From NCBI GenBank assembly GCA_000002445.1, contig CP000070.1:1184001-1248000 (forward strand): a stretch of 64,000 nucleotides of DNA, written 5' to 3'. Under the pieces are notes generated by a model. It saw nothing but the letters and a program-made list of their open reading frames with translations. It did no database searches and had not been told where the DNA came from. Source of the DNA: Trypanosoma brucei (lineage: Eukaryota). This document shows positions 35,176-63,230 of this stretch, in pieces (the stretch's first letter is position 1; every line of letters starts with the position of its first letter). The translations under genes and the position numbers were made by a program.

Positions 35176-36816
35176 TTATCCTCCTTCATCGTACTGGATA
35201 CTAGTCAGTTTCCCCGAGTCATACGCCTTTTTAGTGATGGGATCGCGAAGGATCTTATACGCAAGAATTATCTTTTGCATTCTACTCCTACTTATTTCAT
35301 CATTTTCACCTGTGTTAGACACATCCGGGTGGTGCCGCCTGGCCGCTTCGCGGAAAGCCACAGCTACGTCCTTTGAAGTTGCAGAAAACTCCCGACCACT
35401 CAAACCAAGTAACTTGTAGTATCCTAGTGGGTCAACATTCTCCAAATCAGTACGCCGCCTCTCCTTTGGGTTGACGTGTCGTCCACGGCGAGCTTCGTCA
35501 CGAGCAGCTTCTTCCTTCACCCTTTGCTCAAAACTCTCTTTTTTACGAGCTTGGCGCCGCAGTTCCTCCCGATACTCGTATTCCTCACGCTCCTCATCTT
35601 CAGGCGACCAACGGTAGCCTTGCTGATCAGAGGTGAAGTGCAACATCCCCGCCGTTTTCAACTCCGCCATCTGGTTTGTCTGCTCCCGAAGGAAACACAT
35701 CACCATCAAAAACTGTTGGACACGTAGTGATAGTGCAGCTGCGAAAATAGAGGCTGTAGTTGCAACACCAGGTTCGACCACTGTGGCGGAGGCTATTAGC
35801 GTAACAGCGCTAAAGAGCAGTGCTACGCCCGATTTTCCACGTTTTGTGAGGTGTAAGACGGGACCAGCAACTTTACCAGTAGCACCACACACAAAAGTGG
35901 GACACTGTGTAGATGAGTTTCCCGTTGTAACCGTAAACCGCAACATTGGGAGAAAAACAGGACGAATGGAAATACTTTCCTTGTAAATACCGGTAAGGGT
36001 TACATTGCTTCTTACGAATGAGCCGTGGAACTTGACCAGTTCCTGATCGATACGCCGAAGAACGGTATCTCTTGTCAGACGGGAGTCCAAAATGGTGAGC
36101 GCTGTGGCCGTCGACATCGCAAAGGGTATGATTTTGGGATGCACCTCCATTTCCTCTAGCTCTTTTAGCAACTCGAAACGTGAGATAAGCATGGAGGGAA
36201 CATGTGTTCCAACAACACAACGCTCCACCAGCGACAGTGGGTGAACGTACGACGCAGATACTTGATTGGATGGGTGGTGCTCACCAAACGGGTAGCTGAA
36301 CTGGTAATTCGGTCCCTCAACCCAAACAAGGCAATGCTGCTGCGTTAAGTACGCAGGATCCCTCTGTAGAATTTCAGCACGGAAACTCCCACCGGCTGCC
36401 GTCGCTGCGAGCCAGAAAGGCATCATGTACCGTTCGACACTGTGAACACGCACCGTAGCGCCATGGTGACGACATACAGCATCCAGAGCCTCTGCCTCGC
36501 CAATGTGAAACGGGATGCCACACGCCTTTTTAACGATGCGGGTGTTTTTTGCTTCTAATTGGTCCAGTGACCGAGCAAAAGTAGAAACTTTGTTTTCACC
36601 GGATCCAGGGGGGGCCTGCTCTTCAAAGAGCCCCATCATCGTGCGCCGTTGGTTCACCTGCACATAACAAAGGGAGTATGAAACACACGACCGTAGTTGA
36701 AACATCCTAGTTTCAAAATGCCGCTCCCCTAACACAGTCCATGCACGCCCTATTCTATGATTGATGGGTTGAAAAGAAACGGCAGAATGAATTACAATAC
36801 ATACATCTGCGTGCAT
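35176..36816 (-). CDS. J-domain (DnaJ/Hsp40) protein with the J domain at the C-terminus
   Basis: C-terminal J domain: DPLGYYKLLGLSGREFSATSKDVAVAFREAARRHHPDVSNTGENDEISRSRMQKIILAYKILRDPITKKAYDSG, with the invariant HPD. The track start at 36900 is GTG. In-frame ATGs lie at 36816, 36705 and 36639. The sequence upstream of MMGLFEEQ (36639) is Cys-rich and hydrophobic, so the true start may be 36639. Confidence 0.75.
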   Translation of the reverse strand: MHADVCIVIHSAVSFQPINHRIGRAWTVLGERHFETRMFQLRSCVSYSLCYVQVNQRRTMMGLFEEQAPPGSGENKVSTFARSLDQLEAKNTRIVKKACGIPFHIGEAEALDAVCRHHGATVRVHSVERYMMPFWLAATAAGGSFRAEILQRDPAYLTQQHCLVWVEGPNYQFSYPFGEHHPSNQVSASYVHPLSLVERCVVGTHVPSMLISRFELLKELEEMEVHPKIIPFAMSTATALTILDSRLTRDTVLRRIDQELVKFHGSFVRSNVTLTGIYKESISIRPVFLPMLRFTVTTGNSSTQCPTFVCGATGKVAGPVLHLTKRGKSGVALLFSAVTLIASATVVEPGVATTASIFAAALSLRVQQFLMVMCFLREQTNQMAELKTAGMLHFTSDQQGYRWSPEDEEREEYEYREELRRQARKKESFEQRVKEEAARDEARRGRHVNPKERRRTDLENVDPLGYYKLLGLSGREFSATSKDVAVAFREAARRHHPDVSNTGENDEISRSRMQKIILAYKILRDPITKKAYDSGKLTSIQYDEGG

Positions 36817-46377: not shown

Positions 46378-47909
46378 TCCTTCACAAACAGGTGGCGCCG
46401 GGGTCCTACTAAATCACTCGCCGCGCGCTCCACATTGGGGAGGAAAGCAAAAACAAGGGGGAAAGATAAAGAAAATTTAGCAAGTGTAAAAACCGGTTCA
46501 AGGGCATTTGCAAGCAGGGGGAAAAAACGACGTCCGTGGAGGTAAGTTTGGAATTAAAGGAAACGAAAGTCCCTAGCGGGTGCCTGAATATGCATAATGC
46601 TAGGAGTTCTTTCTCCTTAGAAATCTTGATTCGGTATTACACACGGCTATGGGGTCATTTGCATCGAAGCTCCTCTTGTTGGAGCTCCATTAACGCCTCT
46701 AGGTCATAACAGGTTCCTCCCAGTAACCAACAGCACCACCTTACCTCCTCACAACGGTTCACTGATACAAAGCTCCTCAATGATACATTGCCATCAAGAA
46801 AATTGACGAATACCGTTTCGGCGGTCCTATGGCATTGGGACGGTGCGGCTCTTTTCATTCTATACGTTGGCTACACGACACTATTAGGGTCATTTCCACC
46901 ATTTAACAGGCAGGAGCAAAAGAAAACAAGAGGAAAGAAGCGACACCTTTACCACTTCCGTAGGTAATGAATAAATTCAACCCAACACCCTGCGCATAAT
47001 TCCACACCCTAAAAATACGATGTTCCGAGCCACGTCAACCCACTGAACATCAACAGATTAATAATTTTTACAATAAAAACGAGCAAACAACAGGAAAGAG
47101 GACGGATATGCATGCAACAAACCTACATATAAAACCATACACTCACGTAATACATCCTAAACTACCCCGAAAGCCCCGCAGTCTACACCGACTGCCAGCG
47201 ACTCTACCCCGGAGCGTTTGTTCGGAGTGTCTTGGATATTGTGGTAAACGCTCCGTGTCACGGCCCAGCAATTTACGCAAGCAAACGAGCAAGGCCAATC
47301 AAAGCTGAACATCGAAAAAAAACAACAAAGACGCCCCAGGACCCACCTCAAGCACCGCACATGTTTCTCTCATTTGCGCTACCCGCAAATAGCGCTCAAA
47401 TATGCTCAAGGGAGAAGGAACTACACGTAGGATCGAGTACAGTTGCGTAGTCTGGGCAAGCTAGCGGAGCAAGTTAAAAAAAAAAAACATACACAAACAC
47501 GAACACAAACACACAAAATGGGTCCGCCAACACATACACAGTCGGACAAGATTCGTACGAGAGAGGAAAGACGTTGGCAATAAGAACAGCCATAACCCAA
47601 GAAGATAACAAAGTGTAGGGGATCCGAAACAACAAATCAAGGAACAACACTTACGGAAAAGCGCACAGAATAGTACTTACTTCAGATTTCCACAGACAAC
47701 TCAGCCCAATATCAAAATTATCAATACCACGGCAGTTGTACGAGAAATATAAGAGAAATAAAACACATTTGATCTGCACAGCTGTAGGGGTGATCACATG
47801 GAACAAATATTAAAAAATGAAAGGGTATAGGCGCAACAATAGCGTTATGTCACTAGAAGTGGAATTGACAAAAAAGTGTTATACTGTTTGACGGACGAGG
47901 CGGTGTACT

Positions 47910-50900
47910 TTATATCCACCGCTCGCTCTTTACAGTATCAATATTGCGAATGATCTTTGTTACAGCAGGTTTTCCCCCCTCAAGGGTACACGTTTTTAAG
48001 GTCTCCCATAGATGACGCCTATCATCATCTTCTTCGCTGCTTGTGTAGTCAACCAAATCGTGCCCAGGAACCACCTGTGAGGTTTCCTCGTTTATGAGGC
48101 ACTTGAACAGTGCCCTTTTTCTTGCTTGGGCTTTTAAAACTGTGGCGTCTTCGAATCCCGATGCTAATTTATAGGCAATAACAGCCTTTGACTGATTTTG
48201 TCTGTAGCACCGCGCAATTGCCTGTGACTCAACCTGAGGATTCCACCACGTGTCCCACAGAATAACGTGATTCGCCGCAGTTAAATCAAGACCGTACGCG
48301 CCAATCTGAGTGGACACAACCAAGCAGAGTACGTTCTTATCATCCCTGAACATCTCAACAACCCTTCGTCGACGTTGCTGGCAATCTTTTCCACGAATTG
48401 TAACTACACTAATCTTATAAGCCGTCAAGGTTCTTGCAATGAAGTCTTGCGACCCAATGTATTGTGAAAATATCACAGCCTTTTCCATCTTCTCGAAAAT
48501 GCTGTGTAAAATCGAAATGAGGGCTGTTAGCTTACCACTGAGCGCAACAAAGTCGGCCAGTTTCCCGTTTTCAAGCAAACTTGAACAATCCTTCGCTAAA
48601 GCGTCATCATCACGGCTAAGCCTGTACGTTCCCAACTCTTCGAACTCCCCTGGTTCTTCTTCGATATCAACTTGACCTGTTCTCCATATACCGGTCAAAA
48701 AACCCAAGAAACACAGTGGATGTGTTGAAAGGTGGTATGGCCGATGTTCGGACGCCTTCAGACACAATAGGTTATCTGTTGCATCGACTTTAATGCGCTC
48801 CTCGAACATTTTCTGCTGCACAGCGGAAAAGTTGCATATAATAATGTAGTCGTGCAGCGGTGGAAGATCAACCTTCATAACGGTAAAGACATAGGGGCTC
48901 ATCCACTCGTGGATATATCGTTGTGCGAAGAGAGCATCACAAAAAGCACTATCATCACCGTTAACATAGCGGTTGATAGAGTTTGAAAACTCGTTAAAAT
49001 CGCGTTGCGGCAATGTGGAATGAACCTTGTCATCCACCCACCCAACAAGACGGTAGAGTTCCTCAGCGTTATTCTGCACCGGCGTCCCAGTGAGTACTAC
49101 CCTTGCCGAGCAATACAAACTATCCAGTACCTCCCTCAGTTTACTTTCCTTCGACGATATGCAATGGCCTTCATCAACGACTATGAGAGCGGGGCGGAAC
49201 CCCTTTACCCTCGAAAGAAATGATTTGATGTAGCCAGGATTGATGACAAAGACGTAACTCTTCTTAGGGTTAGTAGTTGTGCCTTGTTGTTCATAGTTAC
49301 TGAGATCATCCTCGAAGGAGCTGGAGTCCACGTTGTTTAGTACAATAAACCCCGGGAATACGAGACCATAGTCCTTCCACTTTTTCGCCTCCTGCATCCA
49401 GTGTTGAAGCAGTGTCTTCGGCGCAACGATCAGAATGTCACACGGCCCATTGTTGTAAATATAAGAATAGCAGATCGTCAGTGAAACCAGTGTCTTCCCA
49501 AGTCCCATTGTTAACGCCAGCACACAACCGTCTCCTTCCTTGATACGACGTGAAACAAATCTAAGGGCCGCATGCTGAGTTAAGCTCAGGGTCTTTGCTA
49601 TTTTGAAAGGAATACACAAAGGTGGAAGGTGGCCGGTGACTCCGTTCAAATTGACCACGCTGTCTGCGCTGTCAGCATGCAGACGATCGCTCATGATCTG
49701 GTTCCGGAGTCTCATGCTCCGCTCCGTTTCACATGTGTGGGACATCAACCCACACCGCAGATAGCATACAATGCTGATTCGTCTCCAACTTCCTTCACGA
49801 TTGTGTACTTCCGTGTTTCCGTGTTCCAGAGAACTGTCGAAAAATAAGACATCACCAACCTGAAGACAGAAGGCCTTGCGCGCACTTTTTAAGGCTAGGT
49901 AGCACCCCTCGTAATTACCGTCAAGTACGCAGAGTGCAGTAAGACCACCGCGAAAGTCACCTTTGTCTCGATGAACGGCGGTTCGAAAGTTCTTGTTCAC
50001 ACTTACAGTACTGAAAACGGTGTTGAATAGCATGTACTCAGGCGGTATGACCCTGCGCTGAAGTTCGTAATGGTCTGGGGCGTTTTCCTTGTATAGTTGA
50101 TCTAACAACTGCAGTAACTCACCACACGGTCCGATAATCTTACCCCAGTTCCTGCGTGTGAACTCAGTCATGCGGCACTTACGCTTCGTTGGATTGTTGA
50201 GATAGTCGTAATAGCCAAGGATACCCGTGTCCGGATTTCTCACACCACCATTTGTCAATCTCCGCATATTTTGTTTGGTAGCCACTCCCTCCACATCAGC
50301 TGCGGCACGTCGACAGATATCTTTATCAATGCCACCACGTATAAAGATGGCCTGCACACGCTTTCCGGTTGGGTCCAGCAAAACACTATCCTCGGTCACC
50401 AGCTCAAAATCCTTTTCAGAGAGGTACTCTGAAACCTTGCCTGTAGGGATGTCAACCACCTCGGTACCGGTAACGTCAAAGCCTTCATAAATATCATCCA
50501 CTGCATCCAGAGCAACAGGCGCAATGTTTACAGCTGCTTCAGCAGCATTGCGAGGGAATGGATCCATCGAACCGTCTAGATGGACCACAGTCCTCTTGAA
50601 TTGAACGTCCACGCGCTGTCCGAGAGGAAGCCTCTGTGTGAGAGCACCAGCTCGGAACTGACGGCGAAGTTCTTCACATACATTTTGCACAGGTCTGATG
50701 TGCAGAAGCGGAACAATATCGTACGCTTTTTGATATTCCTCATCAGAAGCGGTAACCAGTTCCGCACAGAGGTGGACAATTCGACATATGTAATCGCGAG
50801 GGTGGTAAAGAAGGCGGCACGGTAAGGATACACCTGGAGCCGTCGGGAATGTCTCCTCCAGGTTGCTGAACAGGGCCAAACGCTCTGCATCAGTCTTTAA

Positions 50901-51143
50901 CCCGTAGTAGTCTTTGCATAGCCTGGTAAGAGAAGATTCTGACATCGGTATTGGTGGTAGAATCGTGATGCCACCTTTCGGGATACTCACTAACTTCATT
51001 CCATGATTTTTAGCCTCGTCAACGATAACATCAAGTTCACCCAAGAAGGAACCGGGTATAACGATCGCTGGCTCACTCGTTACTAAGACAGTTTGTAGCA
51101 CCTGCTGCAGCACTTGAGACGCCCCATCCATAAACATAGGCAT
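47910..51143 (-). CDS. JBP2: J-binding protein 2: JBP-type Fe(II)/2-oxoglutarate thymidine hydroxylase domain fused to SWI2/SNF2 ATPase
   Basis: The N-terminal half carries the TET/JBP dioxygenase signature TAVHRDKGDFRGG (HxD) ... LEHGNTEV (distal His) ... SWRRISIVCY (2OG-binding Arg). The C-terminal half carries SNF2 motifs: LALTMGLGKTLVSL (I), LIVVDEGHCISS (II, DEGH), VLTGTPVQNNAEELYRL (III) and the helicase-C block CLVVSTQIGAYGLDLTAANHVILWDTWWNPQVESQAIARCYRQNQSK (V-VI). The track start at 51290 is GTG and is followed by a hydrophobic junk peptide. The first ATG is at 51141-51143 (MPMFMDGAS), giving 1077 aa. That is the length I recall for T. brucei JBP2. Confidence 0.93.
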   Translation of the reverse strand: MPMFMDGASQVLQQVLQTVLVTSEPAIVIPGSFLGELDVIVDEAKNHGMKLVSIPKGGITILPPIPMSESSLTRLCKDYYGLKTDAERLALFSNLEETFPTAPGVSLPCRLLYHPRDYICRIVHLCAELVTASDEEYQKAYDIVPLLHIRPVQNVCEELRRQFRAGALTQRLPLGQRVDVQFKRTVVHLDGSMDPFPRNAAEAAVNIAPVALDAVDDIYEGFDVTGTEVVDIPTGKVSEYLSEKDFELVTEDSVLLDPTGKRVQAIFIRGGIDKDICRRAAADVEGVATKQNMRRLTNGGVRNPDTGILGYYDYLNNPTKRKCRMTEFTRRNWGKIIGPCGELLQLLDQLYKENAPDHYELQRRVIPPEYMLFNTVFSTVSVNKNFRTAVHRDKGDFRGGLTALCVLDGNYEGCYLALKSARKAFCLQVGDVLFFDSSLEHGNTEVHNREGSWRRISIVCYLRCGLMSHTCETERSMRLRNQIMSDRLHADSADSVVNLNGVTGHLPPLCIPFKIAKTLSLTQHAALRFVSRRIKEGDGCVLALTMGLGKTLVSLTICYSYIYNNGPCDILIVAPKTLLQHWMQEAKKWKDYGLVFPGFIVLNNVDSSSFEDDLSNYEQQGTTTNPKKSYVFVINPGYIKSFLSRVKGFRPALIVVDEGHCISSKESKLREVLDSLYCSARVVLTGTPVQNNAEELYRLVGWVDDKVHSTLPQRDFNEFSNSINRYVNGDDSAFCDALFAQRYIHEWMSPYVFTVMKVDLPPLHDYIIICNFSAVQQKMFEERIKVDATDNLLCLKASEHRPYHLSTHPLCFLGFLTGIWRTGQVDIEEEPGEFEELGTYRLSRDDDALAKDCSSLLENGKLADFVALSGKLTALISILHSIFEKMEKAVIFSQYIGSQDFIARTLTAYKISVVTIRGKDCQQRRRRVVEMFRDDKNVLCLVVSTQIGAYGLDLTAANHVILWDTWWNPQVESQAIARCYRQNQSKAVIAYKLASGFEDATVLKAQARKRALFKCLINEETSQVVPGHDLVDYTSSEEDDDRRHLWETLKTCTLEGGKPAVTKIIRNIDTVKSERWI

Positions 51144-52304
51144 TGCCGTAACTGGTAGCGTAAAGAGGGGGTAAATAATGTAGTGAACAAAGAGGAGGAA
51201 GGAAAGAGTGAACGTCAGTGGTCTCGAGAATGACCGCAGGAATCTGCGTACTGAAAAGGTGCGAAAATGGAGTAACCGGGTAGCAAACACAACCCAAATG
51301 CAACATTCACAACTGCATATGCAAAGTAAACTACCTCCTTCACTACCTTCCGCAACACTTGTTGTGGTATTCAGTAGCAGAAAATTTGTCCCAAAACAAC
51401 ACTCCTACAACCCAAAACATGGAGGTAACAAGCCAGTTTAAGTCTACGCTAGTTTGCGGAATTTATCAGCATTGAGCCCTACACACGTGGATGGAAGACG
51501 CTTTCCTCTGTATTGCTTCACATATTCTCATCTCTGTTCGACAAAGAGTGAGCGCCCTGTACTGGCTTCATGTAAATAAGGGAAACATCATTTGTCTTCA
51601 TTCGCGTAGGTATTTTATCCAACAAAATCGGTTTCGTGTGTGTCCTATGGAAAAGGGTATAACTTTTCGCACAGATATTTTGAAATTATGCTTACCAAGG
51701 ATTCTAATGTGTATCTACATGAAAACAAGGAAAGAAAATCAAGCAGAACCAGGGGTACTTATTGTCCCATGAGCAACGCGGCTGCGGCCCAGGCACATCA
51801 TAAGAAATACACGATATGGTACACTCCCTCGTTTCTTTTGGGTAAGGGGGAGGTTTAATTTTTCGACATGTACACTTGTTGTGCAAATTACGCCACCCTT
51901 TAGCCCGCAACACCTGACATTATTTCCCCTTTGTCATAGAAGGATCCTCGCCACCTCTTACTGCGTGTGCTCATGGCGGCGTAGTAGGTGAGCCACCTTT
52001 GTGCCGTGTACACTGATACCCATTTCAAAGTACCCGTACCTACTGCTCCGACACCTCCTGTGCTCATCAGCGGCGCCGTACCAACGCCAGAAAGTAACTG
52101 GGAAGAGAAACGCTTACGAACAGTGGAGATGAAACGGGACGTAACAAACTCTAGCTCGATATAATTAGTTAAATCTTTGTCGCCAACTCGTATATTCGCA
52201 CACGTTGCCTTGGAAAAATAAATTAAAAAGTATCAACCCCCAAAGTCCGAGGGCGTGGATACGTCACGAATGAAATCCATTCCAACACACCAAACAAGGA
52301 ATGT

Positions 52305-53467: not shown

Positions 53468-54373
53468 TCAATAAATTGTACGCTTACGGGTGTTTATAGT
53501 GTCCAGCACCGTGGTCGTTATCAAATTCTGATTTCCGGGATATAAAATTTCGAATGGGCCTAGAACAAAATCAATAGACGCCTTGACCGCTGCTTCGATA
53601 GACTTATCAAACACCGGGAAACGAGCATTCCCCATTACCCGGATGCAGTTTGCAACACGTGTAACAGCGCGCCTAATGTCTGCGTCAAACCTATCGTATG
53701 CAGATTTGGCCGACTCGGTAGCGGTAGTTGCTGTTGCTGGACTGACCCATATAGCACCATTTGTGCCAAGAACCAGATTTACGTGTATGAACTCCAAACA
53801 CATAAAGTGGTGCTTGACACGTTTAACAAGAGCTGGTGAAATTAGTACCAGTAAACCAAAGTCGGATAGCTTCCCATACTTCTCTCCTGATCGGGTGTGT
53901 AAGGATATCAGGCCATCTTGAGAAACGCGCTGCACCTCGGCAACGACCAACTCCCCTTCGTCAAATATGTTCCTCATAGTAAGTTCATCACTTCGGCCCC
54001 TCCTCCTCAGGATGCCACCGGGTTCAGTGACATTAGCCAAAGGCATCACTGCATCCTGAAAGGCCCCAACATCAACACGCCATCGGTTACCACATACTTC
54101 CTTAACGCGCCCGACCACAATATCACCAACCTCTGCGACGTACCGGGAAGACATACCTTTAACTGAGACAACTCTGTCTGTTACTTCAACCATCCCATTG
54201 ATTGAGGCAATAATTTCTCCACCACCCTCTTGTGCTGCAGCTGCACCGTTCGGGTTGTTGCCTTCGTAAGTGTTGTATCCTCGGAGGAAAACATGATCTT
54301 CAACGTAATCGAGTTTTGAGGGGCCCGCAGACCCACAAATGGTGTCACCTGTTATGCACGTCGGGACACTCAT
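53468..54373 (-). CDS. RRP4: exosome complex subunit RRP4 (N-terminal domain + S1 + KH)
   Basis: Rrp4 layout: N-terminal VxPGDxI-like MSVPTCITGDTICG; S1 domain YVAEVGDIVVGRVKEVCGNRWRVDV...DELTMRNIFDEGELVVAEVQRV; KH-like C-terminal GAIWVS...IRRAVTRVANCIRVM. The track start at 54451 is GTG. In-frame ATGs lie at 54442 and 54373. The 26 residues between them are hydrophobic junk, so 54373 is the probable start. Confidence 0.85.
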   Translation of the reverse strand: MSVPTCITGDTICGSAGPSKLDYVEDHVFLRGYNTYEGNNPNGAAAAQEGGGEIIASINGMVEVTDRVVSVKGMSSRYVAEVGDIVVGRVKEVCGNRWRVDVGAFQDAVMPLANVTEPGGILRRRGRSDELTMRNIFDEGELVVAEVQRVSQDGLISLHTRSGEKYGKLSDFGLLVLISPALVKRVKHHFMCLEFIHVNLVLGTNGAIWVSPATATTATESAKSAYDRFDADIRRAVTRVANCIRVMGNARFPVFDKSIEAAVKASIDFVLGPFEILYPGNQNLITTTVLDTINTRKRTIY

Positions 54374-54700
54374 CACTACGAAGAGAGTAAACAAACAGTA
54401 GAGAAAACGATAGTAAAACAGAGGGGTTCGACAATGATGCATGATTTTCACAACAACGAATTAGCCGAACAACAGATTTGCGTGACAAAAAGGAAAAAAT
54501 ACGAACCACAGGCAAGTTAGAGGTCTAGGGGCTGTAAAGGGATGCAGGAAAATACAATTACGTGGCTGGATACGAAGCAGAGAGAAGAGTAGTGACCCAA
54601 AGTCGAAAGCAAAGTCAGAGAATACAGTATTTGCTAATGTTAATAACAAGGGAAAGAACGGCAGGAACGGACAAATTAAGTCGCGTTACTTCTTAAAGAA
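54374..54700 (-). promoter_or_regulatory. purine-rich (plus strand), i.e. pyrimidine-rich on the transcribed minus strand, leader and putative SL-acceptor region of RRP4
   Basis: The plus strand at 54374-54700 is dominated by A/G runs (gagaaaacgatagtaaaacagagggg, aaaaggaaaaaatacgaacc, gggaaagaacggcaggaacgg), giving polyY-AG elements on the minus strand upstream of the RRP4 ATG. Confidence 0.4.
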
Positions 54701-57700
54701 AAATGAGCTAAACCGACAACTTCAAGCATCTCCCCTGTGAACGCAACCCAGTTGCCGCAGTCAGACCCCAACCTCCAGTGGACAATGACAAGAAATACTT
54801 CTGCAAAAGAAGCTGTACAGACGGCAAAGGGGTACATTGGGGGTGTAGACGGAGAGAGAGACTTTTTACCCGCATGATCCTACTTGACAACGTGTCACAC
54901 CGTCAAGGGAACGCTTAAAAAATGCAGCGTATGCTATTTCAGTCGTGATTTACAATATCTATTTCCCCCTCCTTTCCAGCTCCTGCAGCAACGGACAATG
55001 AGTAAATATTACAAGGGCAGCCATCTTTGTCGAGATCGCACAGAACCCTTTAACGTCGGTGGTGCATAACACCCCACCCCTTCCTTCCCCACGAACTAGC
55101 GGATGCACACGTACCTCATTATACTGAACAGTTCAAGATCCACCACCTAAGAAGCGCTAAAACAAAAAGAAATGGGTGTGGGACCGCACCAATCGAAACG
55201 ATCTTTTCAAACTGAGAAAGGTGATTGAAAGGCCCCAATACATTACGAGTGCGGTTATCTGCACCAAGCTGCGTTGACGGGAACCGCTGGCGGCAAACGA
55301 CGAGGAAAGAAAGTGGCCAAAAGCACTAATGCATCGGGCATGAATAGGGAGGGGGTGATCCCACGAACCGATCACCAAAAAAGGGAACGACGTCACTTCG
55401 ACGTCGTTCTCTTTCGCCACACACGCCCACGCGCATCCCCGGATAAAAAATAAGATTGAACAAAAATGAAAGGGAAGGAGGGAAAAGGAGAAGGGCAACG
55501 ACGAGCCGCAGCGCATAGCAAAAGTGAGCCTCCATAAGACAGATGTGTGAAAAGGGGAGACCACCCAGTGGCCAATACTACCGTCCCCAAAACGAGGGCT
55601 GTACTGCCAGCACCACGCCACACTAGTGGGAGCTGACGGCACTCGGACACACCGCCATGCGCAGGTCCCGGGGCTAAGCCGGTTTTTAGGCCGCTTTCTG
55701 CAAAACCTGAACGAGTAGTGGGGGCTTAAGTCCACCCCTACCAGCAAAGGGCGGCGCTTTTGGTCACTTCGAGGCACCGGGAACCACCATTGGACATGTT
55801 ATTTCCGGCCCCCCGTCCATTAGCCTTCTGGGGCCTCAAAAATAGACAACAGCCGCCACCCCGGACGCGCGTTTTGGAATCTAAGCGCAAAGGGGCTGCC
55901 GCAGAAACCGGGTTGACATCGGTATTGGGGTCACAACGGTGGTTTAAAAGAGTGATCCCTCAGCGGGCCCTTGCCTAAATAAAAAGAAAACCGAATCGCG
56001 CCGGCGCTCGTCGAGCAAAGCTTCGCCTTTGCGGAGAGGCACCCGGCTGAACGAGTTGTTGTTGGGTTATATTCCGAGAATTTTGCAGGGGGTGGCTTCT
56101 TCGGGTCATAACATATGTACCCCACTTCCTCCTAGGATGGGTGTGTAATTTGACTGGAGAGTCGGGGAACATGAGCAGGGTGTTTTGTGTTCCACCGGTC
56201 AGGGGGCCGGGTTCTTTTTTTCATAAACGTCTATAGGTACGGGGTGTCTATTTTTGGGAGGAGTGCGTAGCCTGTTCCCTTATAGGCGTCCACGCAACTT
56301 CAGGCGAAAAATGCGGAAGAGAAAAAAAGAGGGTTGAACGACAGCGGCTTTTTACCTTTCGCTGAATATCGTTTCGTGAACTGTGTATAGTAGAGTTTCT
56401 GAATTTTTGGTCTCGCTACACTGTGTCATTTTAGCGAAATGAACTACGCAACGGTGTGGGCTTTGTTTTACATGCAGACGACAGCCGTGCCACCCGGCAT
56501 GTACCTGACGCACTTGACGGACCGCTGTCTCCTGGCCATTCCCTCATGTTACGGTGGCAACGTGTGGGGGAAAAGGTGGCGCTAGCCGTCGCGGCTCGCA
56601 CGGAGTTGAGATGTTGTGCAACTCGAAAACCAGCCACTTCCGTTTGTACAGCGTGGTTCTTGTAGGGGGACAAATGGTTGTTTATTTATACATTTAAGTG
56701 GCACATCAAAAGGATATGCGCGGCAGGGTTGTTCAGCCTCTTTGACAAGTACCCACAGCGGGAAACGCTTTTCGTTCCCCCTTTAAATGCGGTGCCTCCC
56801 AAAAACTGAGACGAAGGTCACTCGTGTGTGTGCATCCCTTCTCAATTTTCAAATGGTTAGCGGAAGTACGTCGCAGTCGAAAATGAGAACTGCTTCTGCC
56901 AACAAGAAACCCAACCGGGACACAAAATCGTACCACGAGTGAACGCTCAGTGGCCCGGGTAGTACTCAGCTTCTACCTTTTTATTTATGCGGGAAGGTTT
57001 AACGGCTGTGCTCCGTCTTTGCACCGCTGTTATTTCGTTGGGGGGAAAGTTTAAGGGGGGAAACTACAAAGTCTTTCAGAGAATAGGATGCTTTGGAACA
57101 CTTTCCTACCTTTGAACTATCTGTAATGGTAAGGATGTTGGGAAGAGGACTTGGGAGGGAATTTCGACCGTTTTGTTTGGAGAGCGCAGTGACGCTAAGA
57201 CAAAGGAGCCGTTGCAAAGGACGCGCCAAATAGCATTTAAATCCTGGGTGTAAAACGCGGGGTCATGTGCTTGCTCTGCTAAGTTTAATTTAATTTGTGC
57301 ACACACGCTCATGTGCATGACAATCCAATGGGTTTGAACCTTTCGGTTGATGTGAGAAGACAGAACAGAAAGTGCCGGGTGGAACCACCAATTTTTATAA
57401 CCAACGGCGCGCCACTGGGTCTACGGATGTGCCTGCAAGTTAGCAATCTGTAGAGTGTCCGTGGTGAAGTAGCAGCTGTCGTTTCAAAACTTTAAAATTC
57501 TCTGCTGAATATGTTGTACGATAGCGATGTGGAAACGTGTCATGTTATCTTGTGCCGTTTATCACACTGACAATGCAATAAGGTTCGCCAACAATTCACT
57601 GCGAAACTAAACTAGCACAACGTCATCAAAGGTGAAGCGCTAGGGGTACGTACGTGTTTTTCGTGGGAAACCATGTTTGCGTGAATTTCAGCAACACAAT

Positions 57701-59930
57701 TGGTGTGTTCGATGAAACAATTCCATTGAAGTTAGTAACTGTTGCCTCTTACAGATTTGTTGAGGGACACAAGACACGTCGTACCGTCCGAAATTACTAT
57801 GCCTTCAGCTGAGCTAAAGGGGACTTATGCGACGCTCCCTATATTATTGGTGATTTTTTCTTTAAAGTTTATGAAAGGTAAAATCTGTTACCTTTTGTTA
57901 ATTGGGGAGCTGGGGACAGAAATTTTGTGTGGGTTATACAAGTCGTTTTGACGGAGATGTTAAGCATTACTACAGCTTTGATATACGCACACTGCTGTTT
58001 TCGATTGACGTGTGAAAACAGAGTGGCATGGCGTTGGGCAGTATAGCAAGCAGTAACACATCAGTTCTCGTCGTGAAGCGGTTACTCGTCGCCGTTACTT
58101 GACATCCACCCACTGTATACACAACAGTCTACCCGTTATCCTTACAAGAGCAGTTGTTCTGACCTTATCATGTGACTGTGATAGGGGCATTCTGTTATTC
58201 ATCTTGCAAAATTTTCGGACCGCCGCCAAGTGACTTCTCCAAGAAATAATTGGAACACACCTCCACAGAAGTTGATGATCATTTATTTATTTATTTAAAA
58301 TCACGTCACAATCAGAGGAGATGTGCAGATGCGGCAGTAGGGTAGTTGAGTTTTATTTCATGTTGACACCGAGGCACTTCAACTGCGCGAGAAGAAAATA
58401 CTTAAGATGTAGTCTCGTGCTCCAAACTAGTTTGCATAATCAGTGAGAAGTATTGTGCAGATTGTGGTAGCGTTTTTTTTCTAATAAAAAAACCGCTGGG
58501 GTGCCCACTACTTGTGTGTACTTGATTTGATTTGGCAACTGCCAACACTGTTTGTGAAGATGGTGGCAGTTAGGAGTTGTTCGTGTACGATCAGCTCACT
58601 GAATTTTTAACGCGATACCCGTTGTGCACACCGATTCAAGTAGAAAATGGGTGACGGCAACACCAACACGTTGCGGAACCGACGTTTGTCGGTGATGGAC
58701 GATGGTTTTGCGATTCCACATGCCGTTAAACGTTACTACTCAATGCTTTGATAACAGAGGCATTGTCTTTGCTTGAAAGGTACCGCTACTGTTCTTAACC
58801 TTACATAACTAATTATCGGCCGTCTGTTTGTATTTGTTTTCAGCTTGTCCAAATCGGTTTTTGTGAGGGTGTCGTGCGATGTTGCACTCTAACACACTTG
58901 ATCTAACAACGGCTGCTGTTGTCGTTTCCGTTTTGGTGCCGATCCTGCACCTCTTCGAAAAATATGTTGAGGGGCAGACAACAGCGTAGACAAAGGCGTG
59001 GTTATGCCTGATATGTGCTTATATTTTAAAAAATGCCAGCAACTGTCGTCACCCCTTTAACTTGGTGGGCCGCCGGCGCCAAGTGGTTTAATACTCGTCT
59101 TGGCGTAGGTAATGCATATTGGTATTTGCTGCTCAATGTAAACGAGCACGTTGCTGTAAGCCGTTGTTACGACCAGCATCAGGGCATGACGACTAAATTC
59201 TGAATCCCCTCTCGCTGTGTAATTGATTTCCGTGCATTTGAGAGCCGGCGCAGCTTACCGTTAACAAACGTTCACATACTCAGCCTTCTTACAGCTGTAG
59301 AATAAGTCTAGTAACGAACACTAAAGTAACACGAAAGCACAAAAAAATGCTGGTGATATCTTTTCTTTTCGGTGCCGCGAGCAACTGACCTTAAGCCGCC
59401 AGTCGAGCTTTGAGTAAAGAAGGGCAGTCGCATGAACATTACAATTTGTCCGAATTTGTTTCCTTTGTTACCACAAGTTATTTGTTGCAGTGGTCACTTG
59501 GTGAGCGGTATTCGTTTTATGATGAATGCTGTTGTTGTTTTTTTTTTGTTACTTCTCTCGAAGCCTTTGCTCACGAAGAAAATACCCAAGCTTACTCGAA
59601 TTTTGTTTTGCCATTGGCGGTTACCGGGGCCACAAAGCTCGAAAGGCACAACGTGAAGGATATAGGGGGGGGGGCATATTTATGTCCGTGATGGAGTCCA
59701 TCAACGAACCAAGACCCGTTTGCATCCCTATTTTACTCAGCCTTCGGATTTGTTCGAGGTGCAGACTCAATGCGCCAGTTTATTTATTTATGCTTATTTA
59801 CTAGATTTCTTCTAAGACGTTGGGAGGGTGCCACTCCCGGAATGATACCTTTCAATATCTCCTGGCAATGGCATTGCATACAAGAACGAAGCTAACGCTA
59901 CTCTATACCCCACTTCTCTCTCATCAACTT
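54700..59930. other. about 5.2 kb stretch with no convincing CDS and atypical composition (balanced GC, few polyY or microsatellite tracts); candidate transcription-unit boundary or degenerate retroelement
   Basis: The only ORFs here are short, W/C/R-rich and mutually overlapping (for example 55157..55777). There is no listed ORF of 60 aa or more between 57951 and 59410. The GT-rich plus-strand segment at about 58400-58900 differs from all other spacers in the window, which are CT- or A-rich. Confidence 0.5.
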
Positions 59931-59974
59931 TATTGTGTTCCACGTCTTGCGCAATTGCTGTTTGTAGGTGCAAG

Positions 59975-60241
59975 ATGGGAAAGCAAAAGAAGCGGCTTCC
60001 AAAGCAAAAGCGGAAAGTCCCTATGGCAGAGCGCTCCCGTAAGCTAACAAAAAAGGGAAAACTTAAACGCCGACGCGGTGACCTGAAAATGGTCCACAAT
60101 CTCGATGTCAGTTTCCCCGTGAAGCAAAAGAAAGGTGGAAAGTGGGTGAGAACGGGTGAGCGCCGCTGCAACGTACACACGGTTTGCAATTGTGTTAACC
60201 GCACGGATCCCACCAAAATGGCACGAGTGACGAATCGTTGA
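59975..60241 (+). CDS. candidate small basic protein (88 aa) on the plus strand, hypothetical
   Basis: ATG at 59975-59977 (MGKQKKRLPKQKRKVPMAERSRKLTKKGKLKRRRGDLKMVHNLDVSFPVKQKKGGKWVRTGERRCNVHTVCNCVNRTDPTKMARVTNR). The track start at 59933 is TTG. A plus-strand polypyrimidine tract (ctctataccccacttctctctcatcaactttattgtgttcc) followed by AG lies immediately upstream. This is the only gene-like element on the plus strand in the window. It could be spurious. Confidence 0.3.
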   Translation: MGKQKKRLPKQKRKVPMAERSRKLTKKGKLKRRRGDLKMVHNLDVSFPVKQKKGGKWVRTGERRCNVHTVCNCVNRTDPTKMARVTNR

Positions 60242-61992
60242 GGACCCACCCAACACACCTGGAGATAGCAGTAAAGTGTGTTTTCCCTGCAGTGTCAGAC
60301 GTGCGCCTTCCACCGCTCACGGAAAGCGTTATGTTCCCCACGTAAGGGAAGAGGCCGCGTACGCGTACGTGGCTCAGGTGCCGTCACCTCGTCGGCCATA
60401 CGCACAAAGCACCCGCAGTCACAACTCTGCGGTCAACCGTGCACCCCCGTACTAACCCATTGGCCAACCATCTCACCGCGTACCTTTTTACTTATTCAGT
60501 CCTTTTTTTTTTCTTGGTTTTAGAGTTCACTATGTAAAGGCGGTGCGCAAGCCAGTGTAGTATTCGGCGGGGATTCGAATGCGGGGAGGCTCCAAGACAG
60601 CAACCCAGCAGCAGCGGCTCGGCTGGAGGAGAACTGGAGAGGGGAAGGGAAGGGGGCGGCGCGGAAGCATCGCGGCAGCGTGGGTCTCCAAGGCTGACGT
60701 TTAGGAGGTCCGCCACGAACCCGGCACCTGTTCCCGACACACACGCGGGATTTAGAGGCAACACCCCCGCCCCGTGGATTTAGGAAGTATTGGGGAATAT
60801 GCTCTAACTGGTAAAATAAAAGGGGAGCAAGGAGGTAACCTCTGGAAAGGCGATGGAAACTGTTTTCCGGGTGGCATAACCGACGTTTGGACAGAAGGGG
60901 CGCCCAAAGAGGAAGGCGATACGGGACGAAGGAACGAAGAGATAAACCGCCCACGCGGCCACCCAGGGGAAAGGGAAACCTAACTCACTGAAAATTTATT
61001 TCAAGAAGCCAGCAGCCACGCGAGCACGGGCCCTCTGGACACATAAGTTTCTCGCTTTTAGAAACTGGCAACTGAGAAAACATTTCAACTCGCATGGAGA
61101 GTTTGTCTTTCCAAAGAGGCGCGAAATTTGGGGACTGTATATGGGGGAGGAGGGCTTGGGCGCAAGGCACCGGTGTAATAGAAGGTAGGAAAGCACAACC
61201 CGGACCGTGAGCAAGATTCGCCAAGCGCGGTTCAACTCCTCCGTTGTTTCCGCACTGAAAGCGGTCGGTCACAAGCTCTCGCCCCGGCGCGCGCCGGTGG
61301 CGGTTTGTGGCTGCTCTTGTGATCCGTCGGTGGTTTAGGTGATGCGTTTTACTTCTCAAACGCGCCGTCGCCCACATTTGAATCTACCTGCCTAAACAAT
61401 TGAAAGAACAGAAGGAAACGCGCAGATGGCAGCGAAGAGACCACCGGCTTAGCGCCTCGCAGTCCGCGCATCACCCCACTTCCGACCGCATTCAAAGTGG
61501 AATTTAGCAATTCTTCTTTCACACCCCTGCCGACACACAAAAAGAAAATAATAGTAATATTGACAATAATGATAATGATGAACAACCCGGGAATATAGTC
61601 AACGTGTGGCTAAAAAATAAATAAATAAAAGGGACCCTCGCACGAACACACAAGACAGCGCGTCCGAAGATTTTCGGCGACGGTTTGTGCGTCTGCGACC
61701 GAATATTCAATCCACTGTTAATCATCCTCCACACCCTCCTACTTTAACCACATCGTTTCTGTTTCAAAAGTCAACCCCTTTTTCGTTTCACATTTTTATC
61801 CATTACATGTTTCCCCCTTAATGCGCGGACCCTCACCTCGTAGCTCGGTTTACTTTAATTCATTTTACCCCCACGCACCTATTTTCCCCAGACGATCCCG
61901 TTTTCTTTCCTTCTTTTTATCCCCCCTCTTCCCGTTCCCCGCTCGCTCGTTAACGCTCGCTCCGTCGATAACATTAATTTTTCGCACGAGAC

Positions 61993-62244
61993 TCACTTTG
62001 TCGCTTCGTTTCGGACTTCCTTGACGGCCTTAAGGACGTTCTTCGGTAGTTTGGCGGTGGCAAATATGAGGTTGGTGCGGCGGTCCAACTCCGACTTCAA
62101 CTCATCCACCCTCCCCGATTCCTCCTTCTCGTCCCGCCTTCCACCGGCGCCTCCCGCTTGCGGTTTCGGAGCGCGACCCGCGTCCTGCGCATCTCCCCTG
62201 CTGCCGCCGGCTTGGGGCTTTGCTGCTCCGCCTCGTCCCTTCAT
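61993..62244 (-). CDS. candidate small protein (83 aa) with G/A/P/Q-rich N-terminus and conserved-looking C-terminal helix
   Basis: ATG at 62242-62244 (MKGRGGAAKPQAGG...VDELKSELDRRTNLIFATAKLPKNVLKAVKEVRNEATK). A same-sized plus-strand ORF (62021..62320) overlaps it. I prefer the minus strand from composition and local strand context. Confidence 0.3.
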   Translation of the reverse strand: MKGRGGAAKPQAGGSRGDAQDAGRAPKPQAGGAGGRRDEKEESGRVDELKSELDRRTNLIFATAKLPKNVLKAVKEVRNEATK

Positions 62245-63230
62245 TTCTCCTTTGAATTGTAAATGGCACGCGGTTATTCAATTGATGTGTTTGGATAATG
62301 TGTCCGATACGCCCAATTAATTAATATTATAAGCTAGACGGTGTGAATTGCCGCGTATAACCAACTGGGCAGATGAAACTGCGCGCTTGCTTCCTTTTTC
62401 GGATGCGTGTATGTCTTAACTGACGCTTTTGCCTTCTCGATATAAAGATGATGGGCTCATGGTACAGCGCACGGGCGACAGGGAGGCCATGACAGTGTGA
62501 ACGGCCATGGATGGGTGTCAGCGGCGACACAAAAACAAAACAACAACAAGTGATTGGCAAAGAGGAAGGGGAGGGGACGGAAAGAAATACGGAATAAATT
62601 GTGAAAATCGTGAAGGCCCGCCGCTTTCACATCCATAATCCCAACGCATTTCCACAAAAAAGACCACAGTACTCGGTAACGCAGGGAACGTTCAGGCTTC
62701 AGCCGATGCAAGCAATACGAATTTAAAAACACAGAGAACCTCTTTCAGCAAGGTGAAAACGCGACGAGTCCACGTGAAGACAAAAAAAAGGGCAATAAAC
62801 CACACAACAAAGTGCAAGGGATGGTTTCGCACACGGTGAATCACCTTATCATTCGACTAGGGCGCAAAAATTAACAACAATACCAACTTTCCCCCCTTTA
62901 AAGAATGAGGGGGAAAAAAAAAGAAACACCCCTCCTCCCTCTTTTCCGCGCCTCTTTATTATGGGGCCAAAAAACACATATACCTCACCTCCGGTGTTGG
63001 TCAAAGCTTTTAAGACCCCCTGACGGGAGCAACAACGACTGCAAAGAGACGGTAAACACACAAGAAGAGTGAAGAAGAAATGACAAAAGGGGAAAGGGAG
63101 GAACAAAACGCACTAAACATGGGCATGTATGCCCCAAAATCTCCTCCCGCCCAGCCACCCGGAAAAGCACAGAAACTCGGGTGACGGCATGCACGTCGCG
63201 CGGAAGAAGAGGGAAGAAAAAGAGTCCTGT

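What the first reader, a model, noticed from the sequence alone, without database searches (positions are those of the whole stretch)
47910..51143. JBP2: thymidine hydroxylase fused to SNF2 ATPase, with a GTG-initiated ORF extension that should be trimmed
Both halves are diagnosable from sequence: HxD...H...R dioxygenase residues plus SNF2 motifs I-VI. This two-domain fusion is specific to kinetoplastid base J (beta-D-glucosyl-hydroxymethyluracil) synthesis. It places the window in a kinetoplastid. The ORF track adds 49 hydrophobic codons from a GTG. The first ATG at 51143 gives 1077 aa, the length I recall for T. brucei JBP2. The match is recalled, not looked up.
Basis: partly seen in the sequence, partly recalled or inferred. 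Interest (0 to 1): 0.55.

Follow-up and report, generated by a model that had tools for sequence, protein, structure and literature searches.

The report
Trypanosoma brucei JBP2 gene, already known

Summary
The finding is correct and the feature is already known. The minus-strand ORF 47910-51290 exists. Read from the first ATG (51143), it encodes 1077 aa that match T. brucei brucei TREU927 JBP2 exactly (XP_846088.1, UniProt JBP2_TRYB2, Tb927.7.4650). The window is chromosome 7, v4 coordinates 1,184,001-1,248,000.

Pfam finds Tet_JBP (aa 308-464, E 3e-58), SNF2-rel_dom (523-788) and Helicase_C (871-982). The HRD-X47-H-X13-R motif gives H391, D393, H441 and R455, which fits the residues mutated by Cliffe et al. 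2009. These residues are invariant in 14 orthologues and align with the same motif of human TET2. An AlphaFold model of the N-terminal half matches NgTET1, CcTet and TET2 best.

The 49-codon GTG extension is not coding. Published spliced-leader mapping (Kolev 2010) puts the 5'-most mRNA end at window 51151. That is right after the first AG below a 20-nt polypyrimidine tract and 8 nt before the ATG. The upstream gene's poly(A) site (51274) also lies inside the extension. Orthologue N-termini align at M1.

One loose end: Kolev's Table S1 lists this gene among ORFs with misannotated starts, for a reason I could not establish.

Novelty: already known. Interest: low.

The parts
47910..51143 (-). 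JBP2 (Tb927.7.4650) coding sequence, 1077 aa plus TAA stop
   Evidence: Exact match to XP_846088.1 / JBP2_TRYB2. The GeneDB v4 ORF 1235143..1231910 equals the window coordinates plus 1,184,000.
51144..51290 (-). Spurious 49-codon GTG-initiated ORF extension (not coding)
   Evidence: GTG start and 69% pyrimidine content. It contains the upstream gene's poly(A) site, the polypyrimidine tract and the SL acceptor. No orthologue has an equivalent extension. The 1126-aa form is absent from the protein collection.
51144..51151 (-). Genomic 5'UTR (8 nt, TTACGGCA) downstream of the 5'-most mapped spliced-leader addition site
   Evidence: Kolev 2010 Tables S1 and S3 give the transcript 5' end as 1235151, which is window 51151. 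The sequence was checked.
51152..51153 (-). AG trans-splice acceptor dinucleotide
   Evidence: It is the first AG downstream of the polypyrimidine tract and lies immediately 5' of the mapped SAS. All 4 published SAS tested in this window fall directly after an AG.
51162..51208 (-). Polypyrimidine tract for trans-splicing (uninterrupted runs 51208-51189, 20 nt, and 51171-51162, 10 nt)
   Evidence: Translation of this tract produces the Phe/Leu/Ser/Pro-rich 'hydrophobic' extension.
51274..51274 (-). 3'-most poly(A) site of the upstream gene Tb927.7.4660, lying inside the ORF extension
   Evidence: Kolev 2010 Table S3 gives the transcript 3' end as 1235274. It lies 122 nt upstream of the JBP2 SAS.
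46550..47909 (-). JBP2 3'UTR up to the 3'-most poly(A) site (1360 nt); flagged 'alt 3UTR'
   Evidence: Kolev 2010 Table S3 gives the transcript 3' end as 1230550.
50649..51128 (-). JBP2-specific N-terminal alpha/beta domain (aa 6-165), function unknown
50442..50627 (-). Predicted disordered linker (aa 173-234)
   Evidence: pLDDT below 50 in the AF2 model. Conservation here is low.
49752..50222 (-). Tet_JBP 2OG/Fe(II) dioxygenase core (aa 308-464), with codons for H391 (49971-49973), D393 (49965-49967), H441 (49821-49823) and R455 (49779-49781)
   Evidence: Pfam PF12851, E 2.8e-58, covering the full profile. Residue positions are, invariance. The residues align with TET2. The fold matches NgTET1, CcTet and TET2.
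48780..49577 (-). SNF2 ATPase N-lobe (aa 523-788): motifs I (GLGKT, K550), Ia, II (DEGH 657-660) and III
   Evidence: Pfam PF00176, E 3.3e-31. PDB sequence hits are Rad54, INO80 and DDM1.
48198..48533 (-). SNF2 ATPase C-lobe (Helicase_C, aa 871-982): motifs IV, V and VI (QAIARCYRQNQ 974-984)
   Evidence: Pfam PF00271, E 1.1e-18.

Best explanation
The feature is the protein-coding gene JBP2 (Tb927.7.4650) of Trypanosoma brucei brucei TREU927, chromosome 7. It is the third gene of a minus-strand RNA polymerase II polycistronic unit.

The mature mRNA is made by trans-splicing the spliced leader onto the AG at 51153-51152 and by polyadenylation up to 46550. Translation starts at the ATG at 51143.

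The 1077-aa product has four parts: a JBP2-specific N-terminal domain, a TET/JBP-type Fe(II)/2-oxoglutarate dioxygenase domain, and a two-lobed SWI2/SNF2 ATPase. The dioxygenase domain hydroxylates thymine in DNA to 5-hydroxymethyluracil. That product is then glucosylated by a separate glucosyltransferase to give base J.

The ATPase is thought to give the hydroxylase access to chromatin, preferentially at telomeric and subtelomeric repeats. This allows de novo J synthesis and stabilises the J maintained by JBP1.

Shown here: identity, domain architecture, catalytic residues, fold, and transcript ends by mapping to published coordinates. Taken from the literature: the in vivo requirement for the TH residues and the ATPase motifs, and the telomeric preference. 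Inferred: that ATP-driven remodelling is what gives the hydroxylase access.
For: - Exact sequence identity to XP_846088.1 / JBP2_TRYB2; four neighbouring proteins are also exact TREU927 matches on the same 2.2-Mb contig.
- The gene ID Tb927.7.4650 is JBP2 (PMC9566855).
- Pfam finds Tet_JBP, SNF2-rel_dom and Helicase_C.
- The 35 best homologues all share this architecture, and many are named JBP2.
- HRD-X47-H-X13-R lies at H391/D393/H441/R455. Alanine substitutions H391A and H441A and the arginine substitution abolish de novo J synthesis in vivo, and D393A reduces it (PMC2655668).
- Mutations in the ATPase motifs kill de novo J synthesis (PMC2655668 citing DiPaolo 2005).
- The catalytic residues are invariant across orthologues and across the family.
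- A profile of the TH core has human TET2 as its best PDB hit, with the ligand motifs aligned.
- The AF2 model has NgTET1 (E 8e-11), CcTet, TET2 and CMD1 as its best fold matches.
- The SAS is at 51151 and the PAS at 46550 (PMC2936537). The coordinate offset was validated by 4/4 SAS falling after an AG and by matching ORF ends for five genes.
- JBP2 prefers telomeric J, and JBP1-dependent J needs JBP2 for maintenance (PMC2896530).
- The mRNA is higher in bloodstream forms (PMC2771046; PMC2916883 supplement).
Against: - Nothing argues against the identity.
- On mechanism, ChIP-seq of YFP-JBP2 found no specific chromatin association, and JBP2 is largely cytoplasmic in procyclic cells (PMC9566855). 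How and where the SNF2 domain engages chromatin therefore remains unresolved.
- Cliffe 2009 states that in vitro hydroxylation had not yet been shown at that time.
- Kolev 2010 lists the gene in its table of ORFs with misannotated starts, although the listed 5'-most SAS lies upstream of the ATG.
Confidence: 0.98

Rival explanations
1. The full 1126-aa GTG-initiated ORF is the real product, so JBP2 carries a hydrophobic N-terminal signal or membrane-anchor extension.
For: The reading frame is open from 51290, and the extra 49 residues are hydrophobic.
Against: - The 5'-most mapped SL site is 51151, so 139 of the 147 extension bases are not in the mRNA.
- The upstream gene's poly(A) site (51274) lies inside the extension.
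- The extension is a translated polypyrimidine tract.
- It contains no ATG, and GTG is not a normal eukaryotic initiator (general knowledge).
- No orthologue has such an extension; T. cruzi, T. grayi and T. melophagium start 'MPV' aligned to 'MPM'.
- The 1126-aa sequence is absent from a collection of 15 billion proteins, whereas the 1077-aa form is present.
Confidence: 0.005
2. The true start is downstream at M49, because the dominant trans-splice site lies inside the annotated ORF, as the gene's listing in Kolev 2010 Table S1 might imply. The protein would then be about 1029 aa.
For: [quoted passage not shown] SAS mapped within the ORF'.
- AG dinucleotides occur from 29 nt into the CDS.
- An 8-nt genomic 5'UTR is unusually short.
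Against: - The same table row gives the 5'-most SAS 8 nt upstream of the ATG, so mRNAs containing M1 exist.
- The spliced leader itself adds about 39 nt of 5' leader (general knowledge).
- Residues 10-48 are conserved across 13 named orthologues and belong to a confidently folded N-terminal domain.
- Orthologue starts align at M1.
Confidence: 0.03
3. It is a generic SNF2-family DNA-repair or remodelling ATPase, as the GenBank name 'SNF2 DNA repair protein, putative' suggests, with no thymine hydroxylase function.
For: - The NCBI product name says so.
- The strongest PDB sequence hits are Rad54, INO80 and DDM1.
Against: - There is a full-length Tet_JBP match, E 2.8e-58.
- The HxD/H/R residues are invariant.
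- The N-terminal half has a TET-like fold.
- Mutating those residues abolishes de novo J synthesis in vivo (PMC2655668).
- UniProt names the protein thymine dioxygenase JBP2.
Confidence: 0.005

Closest known systems
T. brucei JBP2 (Tb927.7.4650; UniProt Q57X81 / JBP2_TRYB2; XP_846088.1)
   Same: Everything: 1077/1077 residues are identical, the chromosomal coordinates match, and the catalytic residues fit those mutated in the literature.
   Different: Nothing. The only discrepancy is the mechanical ORF call, which starts 49 codons too early at a GTG.
JBP2 orthologues of other kinetoplastids (T. cruzi, T. vivax, Leishmania spp., Leptomonas, Phytomonas; more distantly Perkinsela and Papus)
   Same: They share the three-part architecture of N-terminal domain, Tet_JBP and SNF2/Helicase_C. 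All catalytic and ATPase residues are invariant, and the N-termini align.
   Different: Overall identity is 55-58% within Trypanosoma, 42-45% to Leishmaniinae and about 30% to prokinetoplastids. The N-terminal domain and the linkers diverge most.
JBP1 (J-binding protein 1), the paralogous thymidine hydroxylase
   Same: It has a homologous TH domain with the same HxD...H...R motif. Representative JBP1-like proteins of about 740-980 aa align to JBP2 aa ~240-480 at 33-40% identity.
   Different: JBP1 has a J-DNA-binding domain and no SNF2 ATPase. It also lacks the JBP2 N-terminal domain (aa 1-170). Per PMC2896530, JBP1 mainly makes chromosome-internal J and JBP2 mainly telomeric J.
TET / NgTET1 / CcTet / CMD1 5-methylpyrimidine dioxygenases
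   Same: They share the double-stranded beta-helix fold (Foldseek E 8e-11 to 1e-7) and aligned Fe(II) and 2OG ligands. They belong to the same Pfam family, PF12851.
   Different: Per the literature, the substrate is thymine in DNA rather than 5-methylcytosine. Sequence identity is only about 15%. TET proteins are not fused to an SNF2 ATPase.
SNF2-family ATPases (Rad54, INO80, DDM1/HELLS, ATRX)
   Same: All seven helicase-like motifs are present, and both RecA-like lobes match at E 1e-32 to 1e-36.
   Different: None of these carries a dioxygenase domain. JBP2's remodelling activity has not been shown biochemically in the papers read here.

Membership tests
JBP2 (bifunctional helicase and thymine dioxygenase) | Sequence orthology to the experimentally characterised T. 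brucei JBP2 | tested here: met
   100% identity over 1077 aa to XP_846088.1 / JBP2_TRYB2. The gene ID Tb927.7.4650 is JBP2.
JBP2 (bifunctional helicase and thymine dioxygenase) | N-terminal TET/JBP dioxygenase domain fused to a C-terminal SWI2/SNF2 ATPase in one polypeptide | tested here: met
   Pfam finds PF12851 at 308-464, PF00176 at 523-788 and PF00271 at 871-982. All 35 best homologues have the same architecture.
JBP2 (bifunctional helicase and thymine dioxygenase) | Stimulates de novo base J synthesis in vivo, dependent on the TH residues and the ATPase motifs | not testable with these tools
   Literature only: PMC2655668 and PMC2896530.
TET/JBP Fe(II)/2-oxoglutarate dioxygenases (PF12851) | HxD...H iron-binding triad and the 2OG-binding Arg | tested here: met
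   H391, D393, H441 and R455. They are invariant in 14 orthologues and in 148-151 of 152 aligned family domains. They align with TET2 'HAHRD', 'ELHATTP' and 'TRISLVFY'.
TET/JBP Fe(II)/2-oxoglutarate dioxygenases (PF12851) | Double-stranded beta-helix fold closest to TET-type enzymes | tested here: met
   In the AF2 model of aa 1-520 the core has pLDDT of mostly 75-97. The top 26 Foldseek PDB hits are NgTET1, CcTet, TET2 and CMD1, at E 8e-11 to 4e-7.
TET/JBP Fe(II)/2-oxoglutarate dioxygenases (PF12851) | Fe(II)/2OG-dependent oxidation of a 5-methylpyrimidine in DNA (here T to hmU) | not testable with these tools
   This needs a biochemical assay. Cliffe 2009 notes that in vitro activity had not yet been detected at that date.
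SNF2 family ATPases | Helicase-like motifs I, Ia, II (DExH), III, IV, V and VI in two RecA-like lobes | tested here: met
   Motif positions are given. K550, T551, D657, E658, H660, Q974 and R978 are invariant in 14 orthologues. PDB hits are Rad54 at 2e-36 and INO80 at 3e-32.
SNF2 family ATPases | DNA-dependent ATPase or chromatin-remodelling activity | not testable with these tools
   It is inferred from the motifs and from the published loss of function of ATPase-motif mutants.
Kinetoplastid trans-spliced, polyadenylated mRNA gene | Polypyrimidine tract followed by an AG acceptor upstream of the ATG; experimentally mapped SL site; upstream poly(A) site about 100-200 nt away | tested here: met
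   A 20-nt polyY run lies at 51208-51189, and the first AG after it is at 51153-51152. The mapped SAS is 51151, and the upstream PAS at 51274 is 122 nt away. The SL mapping itself comes from PMC2936537.

The most novel reading that the evidence does not exclude
Two modest leads remain open.

(a) The JBP2-specific N-terminal domain (aa 6-165) folds confidently but has no convincing relative in the PDB. Its weak best matches include small nucleic-acid-binding modules (R3H, Smr, KhpB/Jag). It could be an uncharacterised DNA- or chromatin-targeting module that sets JBP2's preference for telomeric substrate.

(b) The gene's listing in Kolev's table of ORFs with the SAS inside the ORF might reflect internal trans-splicing in procyclic forms. 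That would yield N-terminally truncated or non-productive mRNAs and could contribute to the stage-specific silencing of JBP2 function.
Probability: 0.12. Interest if true: 0.3.

Novelty: already known. Interest (0 to 1): 0.06.

Why it matters
This adds nothing to biology. JBP2 has been characterised since 2005, and this locus is the reference copy.

Its value is as a calibration point. The first-stage reader identified a two-domain enzyme, its catalytic residues, its organism group and its exact length from raw sequence, and it saw that a bacterial-style ORF caller over-extends the gene.

The case also shows a general artefact in trypanosomatid DNA. The polypyrimidine tract that directs trans-splicing is open in frame upstream of the ATG and translates into a false hydrophobic leader. 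The same effect appears in the old annotation of the neighbouring RRP4 gene.

Tried and rejected
- The search for homologous proteins timed out twice. With the N-terminal 231 aa alone it returned nothing, not even the query's own protein; I treat that as a limitation of the tool's word index, not as biology. The full-length query later worked.
- phmmer of the TH half (aa 1-520) against PDB sequences found nothing at E up to 10. A 30-sequence profile was needed to reach TET2.
- One of the two Nilsson 2010 qPCR primers for Tb927.7.4650 matches the CDS exactly at 50520-50539. The other was not found within one mismatch; this was not pursued and may reflect a strain difference or a typo.
- Nilsson 2010 supplements give expression values but no splice coordinates. 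No Siegel 2010 supplements are held. Kolev Tables S4 and S12, which hold per-site SL counts, are cut in the held copy, so why JBP2 is in Table S1 could not be settled.
- Rfam and tRNA scans of the whole window found nothing.
- The 104-aa ORF 50576-50890, in another frame inside the CDS, was treated as a chance ORF.
- The rivals considered and rejected (full 1126-aa product, generic SNF2 repair protein) are covered under the rival explanations.
Full report
**Observation**

The minus strand of the window has an ORF at 47910-51290, 1126 aa from a GTG. The first in-frame ATG is at 51143, which leaves 1077 aa. The stop is TAA at 47912-47910. The 49 extra codons come from DNA that is 69% pyrimidine and read VFATRLLHFRTFSVRRFLRSFSRPLTFTLSFLLFVHYIIYPLFTLPVTA. 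Every coordinate and count in the finding is correct.

**Identity**

The 1077-aa product is an exact match to a protein in the public collection: XP_846088.1 / AAZ12529.1, 'SNF2 DNA repair protein, putative [T. brucei brucei TREU927]'. UniRef names it 'Thymine dioxygenase JBP2 ... JBP2_TRYB2', and it sits on a 2,205,233-bp contig. The 1126-aa form is not in the collection.

Four neighbouring products are also exact TREU927 proteins on the same contig: XP_846077, XP_846079, XP_846087 and XP_846089. Staneva et al. 2022 give JBP2 as Tb927.7.4650 (PMC9566855).

Kolev et al. 2010 list Tb927.7.4650 on Tb927_07_v4, minus strand, with the ORF at 1235143..1231910 (PMC2936537 Tables S1 and S3). That is exactly the window coordinates plus 1,184,000. 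The same offset reproduces the ORF ends of Tb927.7.4580, 4590, 4660 and 4670. It also places all four published spliced-leader sites that I tested immediately after an AG dinucleotide. The window is therefore T. brucei chromosome 7, v4 positions 1,184,001-1,248,000, in the same orientation.

**Domain architecture and catalytic residues**

Pfam gives three domains:
- Tet_JBP (PF12851), aa 308-464, E 2.8e-58, covering profile positions 2-164 of 164.
- SNF2-rel_dom (PF00176), aa 523-788, E 3.3e-31.
- Helicase_C (PF00271), aa 871-982, E 1.1e-18.

The published motif HRD-X47-H-X13-R occurs once, at H391, D393, H441 and R455, and V459 follows it. Cliffe et al. 2009 made H391A, D393A, H441A, an Arg-to-Ala substitution and a V459A control in T. 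brucei JBP2. The figure legend prints the arginine mutant as 'R445A'. Since the paper's own motif has X13 between the His and the Arg, and residue 445 is Glu here, this is most likely R455. The His and Arg mutants abolished de novo J synthesis, and D393A reduced it (PMC2655668).

The SNF2 motifs are all present:
- I, LTMGLGKT, 544-551.
- Ia, 571-582.
- II, VVDEGH, 655-660.
- III, LTGTPVQN, 684-691.
- IV, 889-895.
- V, 944-954.
- VI, QAIARCYRQNQ, 974-984.

The C-terminal half matches Rad54, INO80, DDM1 and ATRX chains at E 1e-31 to 2e-36.

**Homologues**

A full-length search returned 35 proteins with E of 1e-30 or better. Every one carries PF12851 with SNF2-type ATPase domains (PF00271 in all; PF00176 in all but one T. 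vivax entry that covers only half the query). The named ones are JBP2, 'j-binding protein' or 'bifunctional helicase and thymine dioxygenase' from these genera and species:
- T. grayi, T. melophagium, T. cruzi, T. conorhini, T. rangeli and T. vivax.
- Phytomonas, Leishmania spp. and Porcisia.
- Lotmaria, Novymonas, Leptomonas and Strigomonas.
- Papus.

An exhaustive HMMER search with aa 1-520 found 1073 representatives at E of 1e-3 or better. Among the best 150, only about 18 clusters also have an SNF2 half. The rest fall into two groups:
- JBP1-like proteins of 740-1150 aa that align from about aa 240.
- Short proteins of about 300 aa, probably the phage or bacterial T-dioxygenases recently described (PMC13229309).

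The most distant named fusion proteins come from Perkinsela and Papus, both Prokinetoplastina within Kinetoplastea. Several fusion proteins come from unnamed metagenome assemblies.

**Alignment to JBP orthologues, JBP1-like proteins and TET2**

In 14 named orthologues, these residues are all invariant: H391, D393, H441, R455, K550, T551, D657, E658, H660, Q974 and R978. Across 152 aligned domains from the 150 best representatives, H391 is kept in 151, D393 in 150, H441 in 149 and R455 in 148. The remainder are gaps, apart from one Gly at position 393.

A 30-sequence profile of the core has human TET2 as its best PDB hit (4NM6, 5D9Y; E 2e-6). The alignment places 'avHkDkGD' on 'HAHRDLHN', 'evHgnte' on 'ELHATTP' and 'eRlsvVlY' on 'TRISLVFY'. 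From my own knowledge of the TET2 structure, these are H1382/D1384, H1881 and R1896.

An AlphaFold2 model of aa 1-520 has mean pLDDT 77, and the catalytic core is mostly 75-97. Its top Foldseek hits in the PDB are NgTET1 (E 8e-11), CcTet, TET2 and CMD1. Generic 2OG oxygenases appear only below these.

**The 5' end**

On the coding strand upstream of the ATG there is a 20-nt uninterrupted pyrimidine run (51208-51189) and a second run of 10 nt (51171-51162). The first AG after them is at 51153-51152.

Kolev et al. mapped the 5'-most spliced-leader addition site of Tb927.7.4650 to 1235151, which is window 51151. That is the base right after this AG and 8 nt before the ATG. They also mapped the 3'-most poly(A) site of the upstream gene Tb927.7.4660 to 1235274, which is window 51274.

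The '49-codon extension' is therefore a composite of four pieces:
- The tail of the neighbour's 3'UTR.
- A 122-nt processed-out spacer.
- The polypyrimidine tract.
- An 8-nt 5'UTR.

No ATG in any frame lies between 51305 and 51144. Orthologue N-termini align at M1: T. grayi, T. cruzi and T. melophagium begin 'MPV' against 'MPM'. Residues 10-48 are conserved, which also argues against the next distant Met, M49. Trimming to 51143 is correct.

The 3'-most poly(A) site is 1230550, window 46550. This gives a 3'UTR of up to 1360 nt, flagged as alternatively processed.

**Loose end**

[quoted passage not shown] Yet the row itself shows the 5'-most SAS upstream of the ATG. Several other rows are similar. 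The selection rule is not stated, and the per-site tables are cut in the held copy. Most likely some SL tags in procyclic cells map to AGs just inside the ORF. I give a genuinely downstream start about 3%.

**Mechanism**

The following comes from the literature. Base J is made in two steps: hydroxylation of thymine in DNA to hydroxymethyluracil, then glucosylation. JBP1 and JBP2 are the hydroxylases (PMC2655668, PMC10057400).

JBP2 expressed in procyclic cells induces de novo J, and this needs both the TH residues and the ATPase motifs. In a J-null background JBP2 acts mainly at telomeric and subtelomeric repeats, while JBP1 makes most chromosome-internal J. JBP1-dependent J is nevertheless lost without functional JBP2 (PMC2896530).

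JBP2 mRNA is higher in bloodstream forms. JBP2 co-purifies with the promoter complex SPARC in bloodstream forms, but it gave no ChIP signal (PMC9566855). That the ATPase acts by remodelling chromatin to expose thymines is an inference from family membership and mutant phenotypes, not a demonstrated activity.

**Extras**

- Residues 173-234 are predicted to be disordered.
- According to Kolev Table S14, the minus-strand transcription unit starts at Tb927.7.4670, so JBP2 is its third gene. A divergent strand-switch region lies at about 54.5-59.9 kb of the window.

**Verdict**

The feature is the reference copy of a well-characterised gene. Novelty: already known. Interest: about 0.06.

Noticed in passing
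window 53468-54442 (-), Tb927.7.4670 RRP4: This neighbour shows the same artefact class as the JBP2 extension. The GeneDB v4 start (ATG 54442) gives 23 N-terminal residues, MHHCRTPLFYYRFLYCLFTLFVV, which are a translated polypyrimidine tract. Kolev 2010 maps the SL site to 1238375, window 54375, right after the AG at 54377-54376 and 2 nt before the ATG at 54373 (M24). The real RRP4 start is probably M24.
   Followed up: partly
window ~54500-63200: This stretch is poor in ORFs, and its GC skew turns positive at 56-60 kb. Kolev Table S14 marks a divergent Pol II start between Tb927.7.4670 (-) and the single-gene plus-strand unit Tb927.7.4680. That gene's ORF ends at about 60241 and its PAS is at window 60416. 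Next come the abundant novel transcript Tb7.NT.52 (PAS at window 61493) and the end of the 4960-to-4690 minus-strand unit. JBP2 therefore lies about 3-4 kb downstream of a transcription start region, the kind of site where base J and SPARC are reported.
   Followed up: partly
window 23968-24903 (-) and 26748-28148 (-): Two more chromatin genes share the polycistron with JBP2. One is a MYST histone acetyltransferase with a Tudor-knot domain (XP_846079). The other is XP_846077 (311 aa), which by accession and gene numbering is 11 genes before JBP2. That makes it Tb927.7.4540, CRD1, the SPARC chromodomain protein that co-purifies with JBP2. Pfam found no chromo domain in it at E<1e-3. The linkage is probably coincidental.
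   Followed up: partly
window 33202-34926 (-), Tb927.7.4580: A 24-nt unit repeated about 37 times at 92% identity lies at 34019-34910. It encodes a long (M/K)A(A/T)VPQPP repeat at the N-terminus of a conserved hypothetical protein. It accounts for the local GC-skew inversion and for a spurious Pfam 'Cornifin' hit.
   Followed up: no
[not shown]
   Followed up: partly
window 35176-36816 (-), Tb927.7.4590 DnaJ protein: Kolev Table S1 puts the 5'-most SL site at 1220754, window 36754. That is 62 nt inside the annotated ORF and right after the AG at 36756-36755, so the annotated start ATG 36816 is probably too far upstream.
   Followed up: no
PMC2655668 Figure 2 legend (literature, not the window): The legend names the arginine mutant 'R445A'. 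Residue 445 of JBP2 is Glu, and the paper's own motif (H-X13-R after H441) points to R455, so this is probably a typo.
   Followed up: yes
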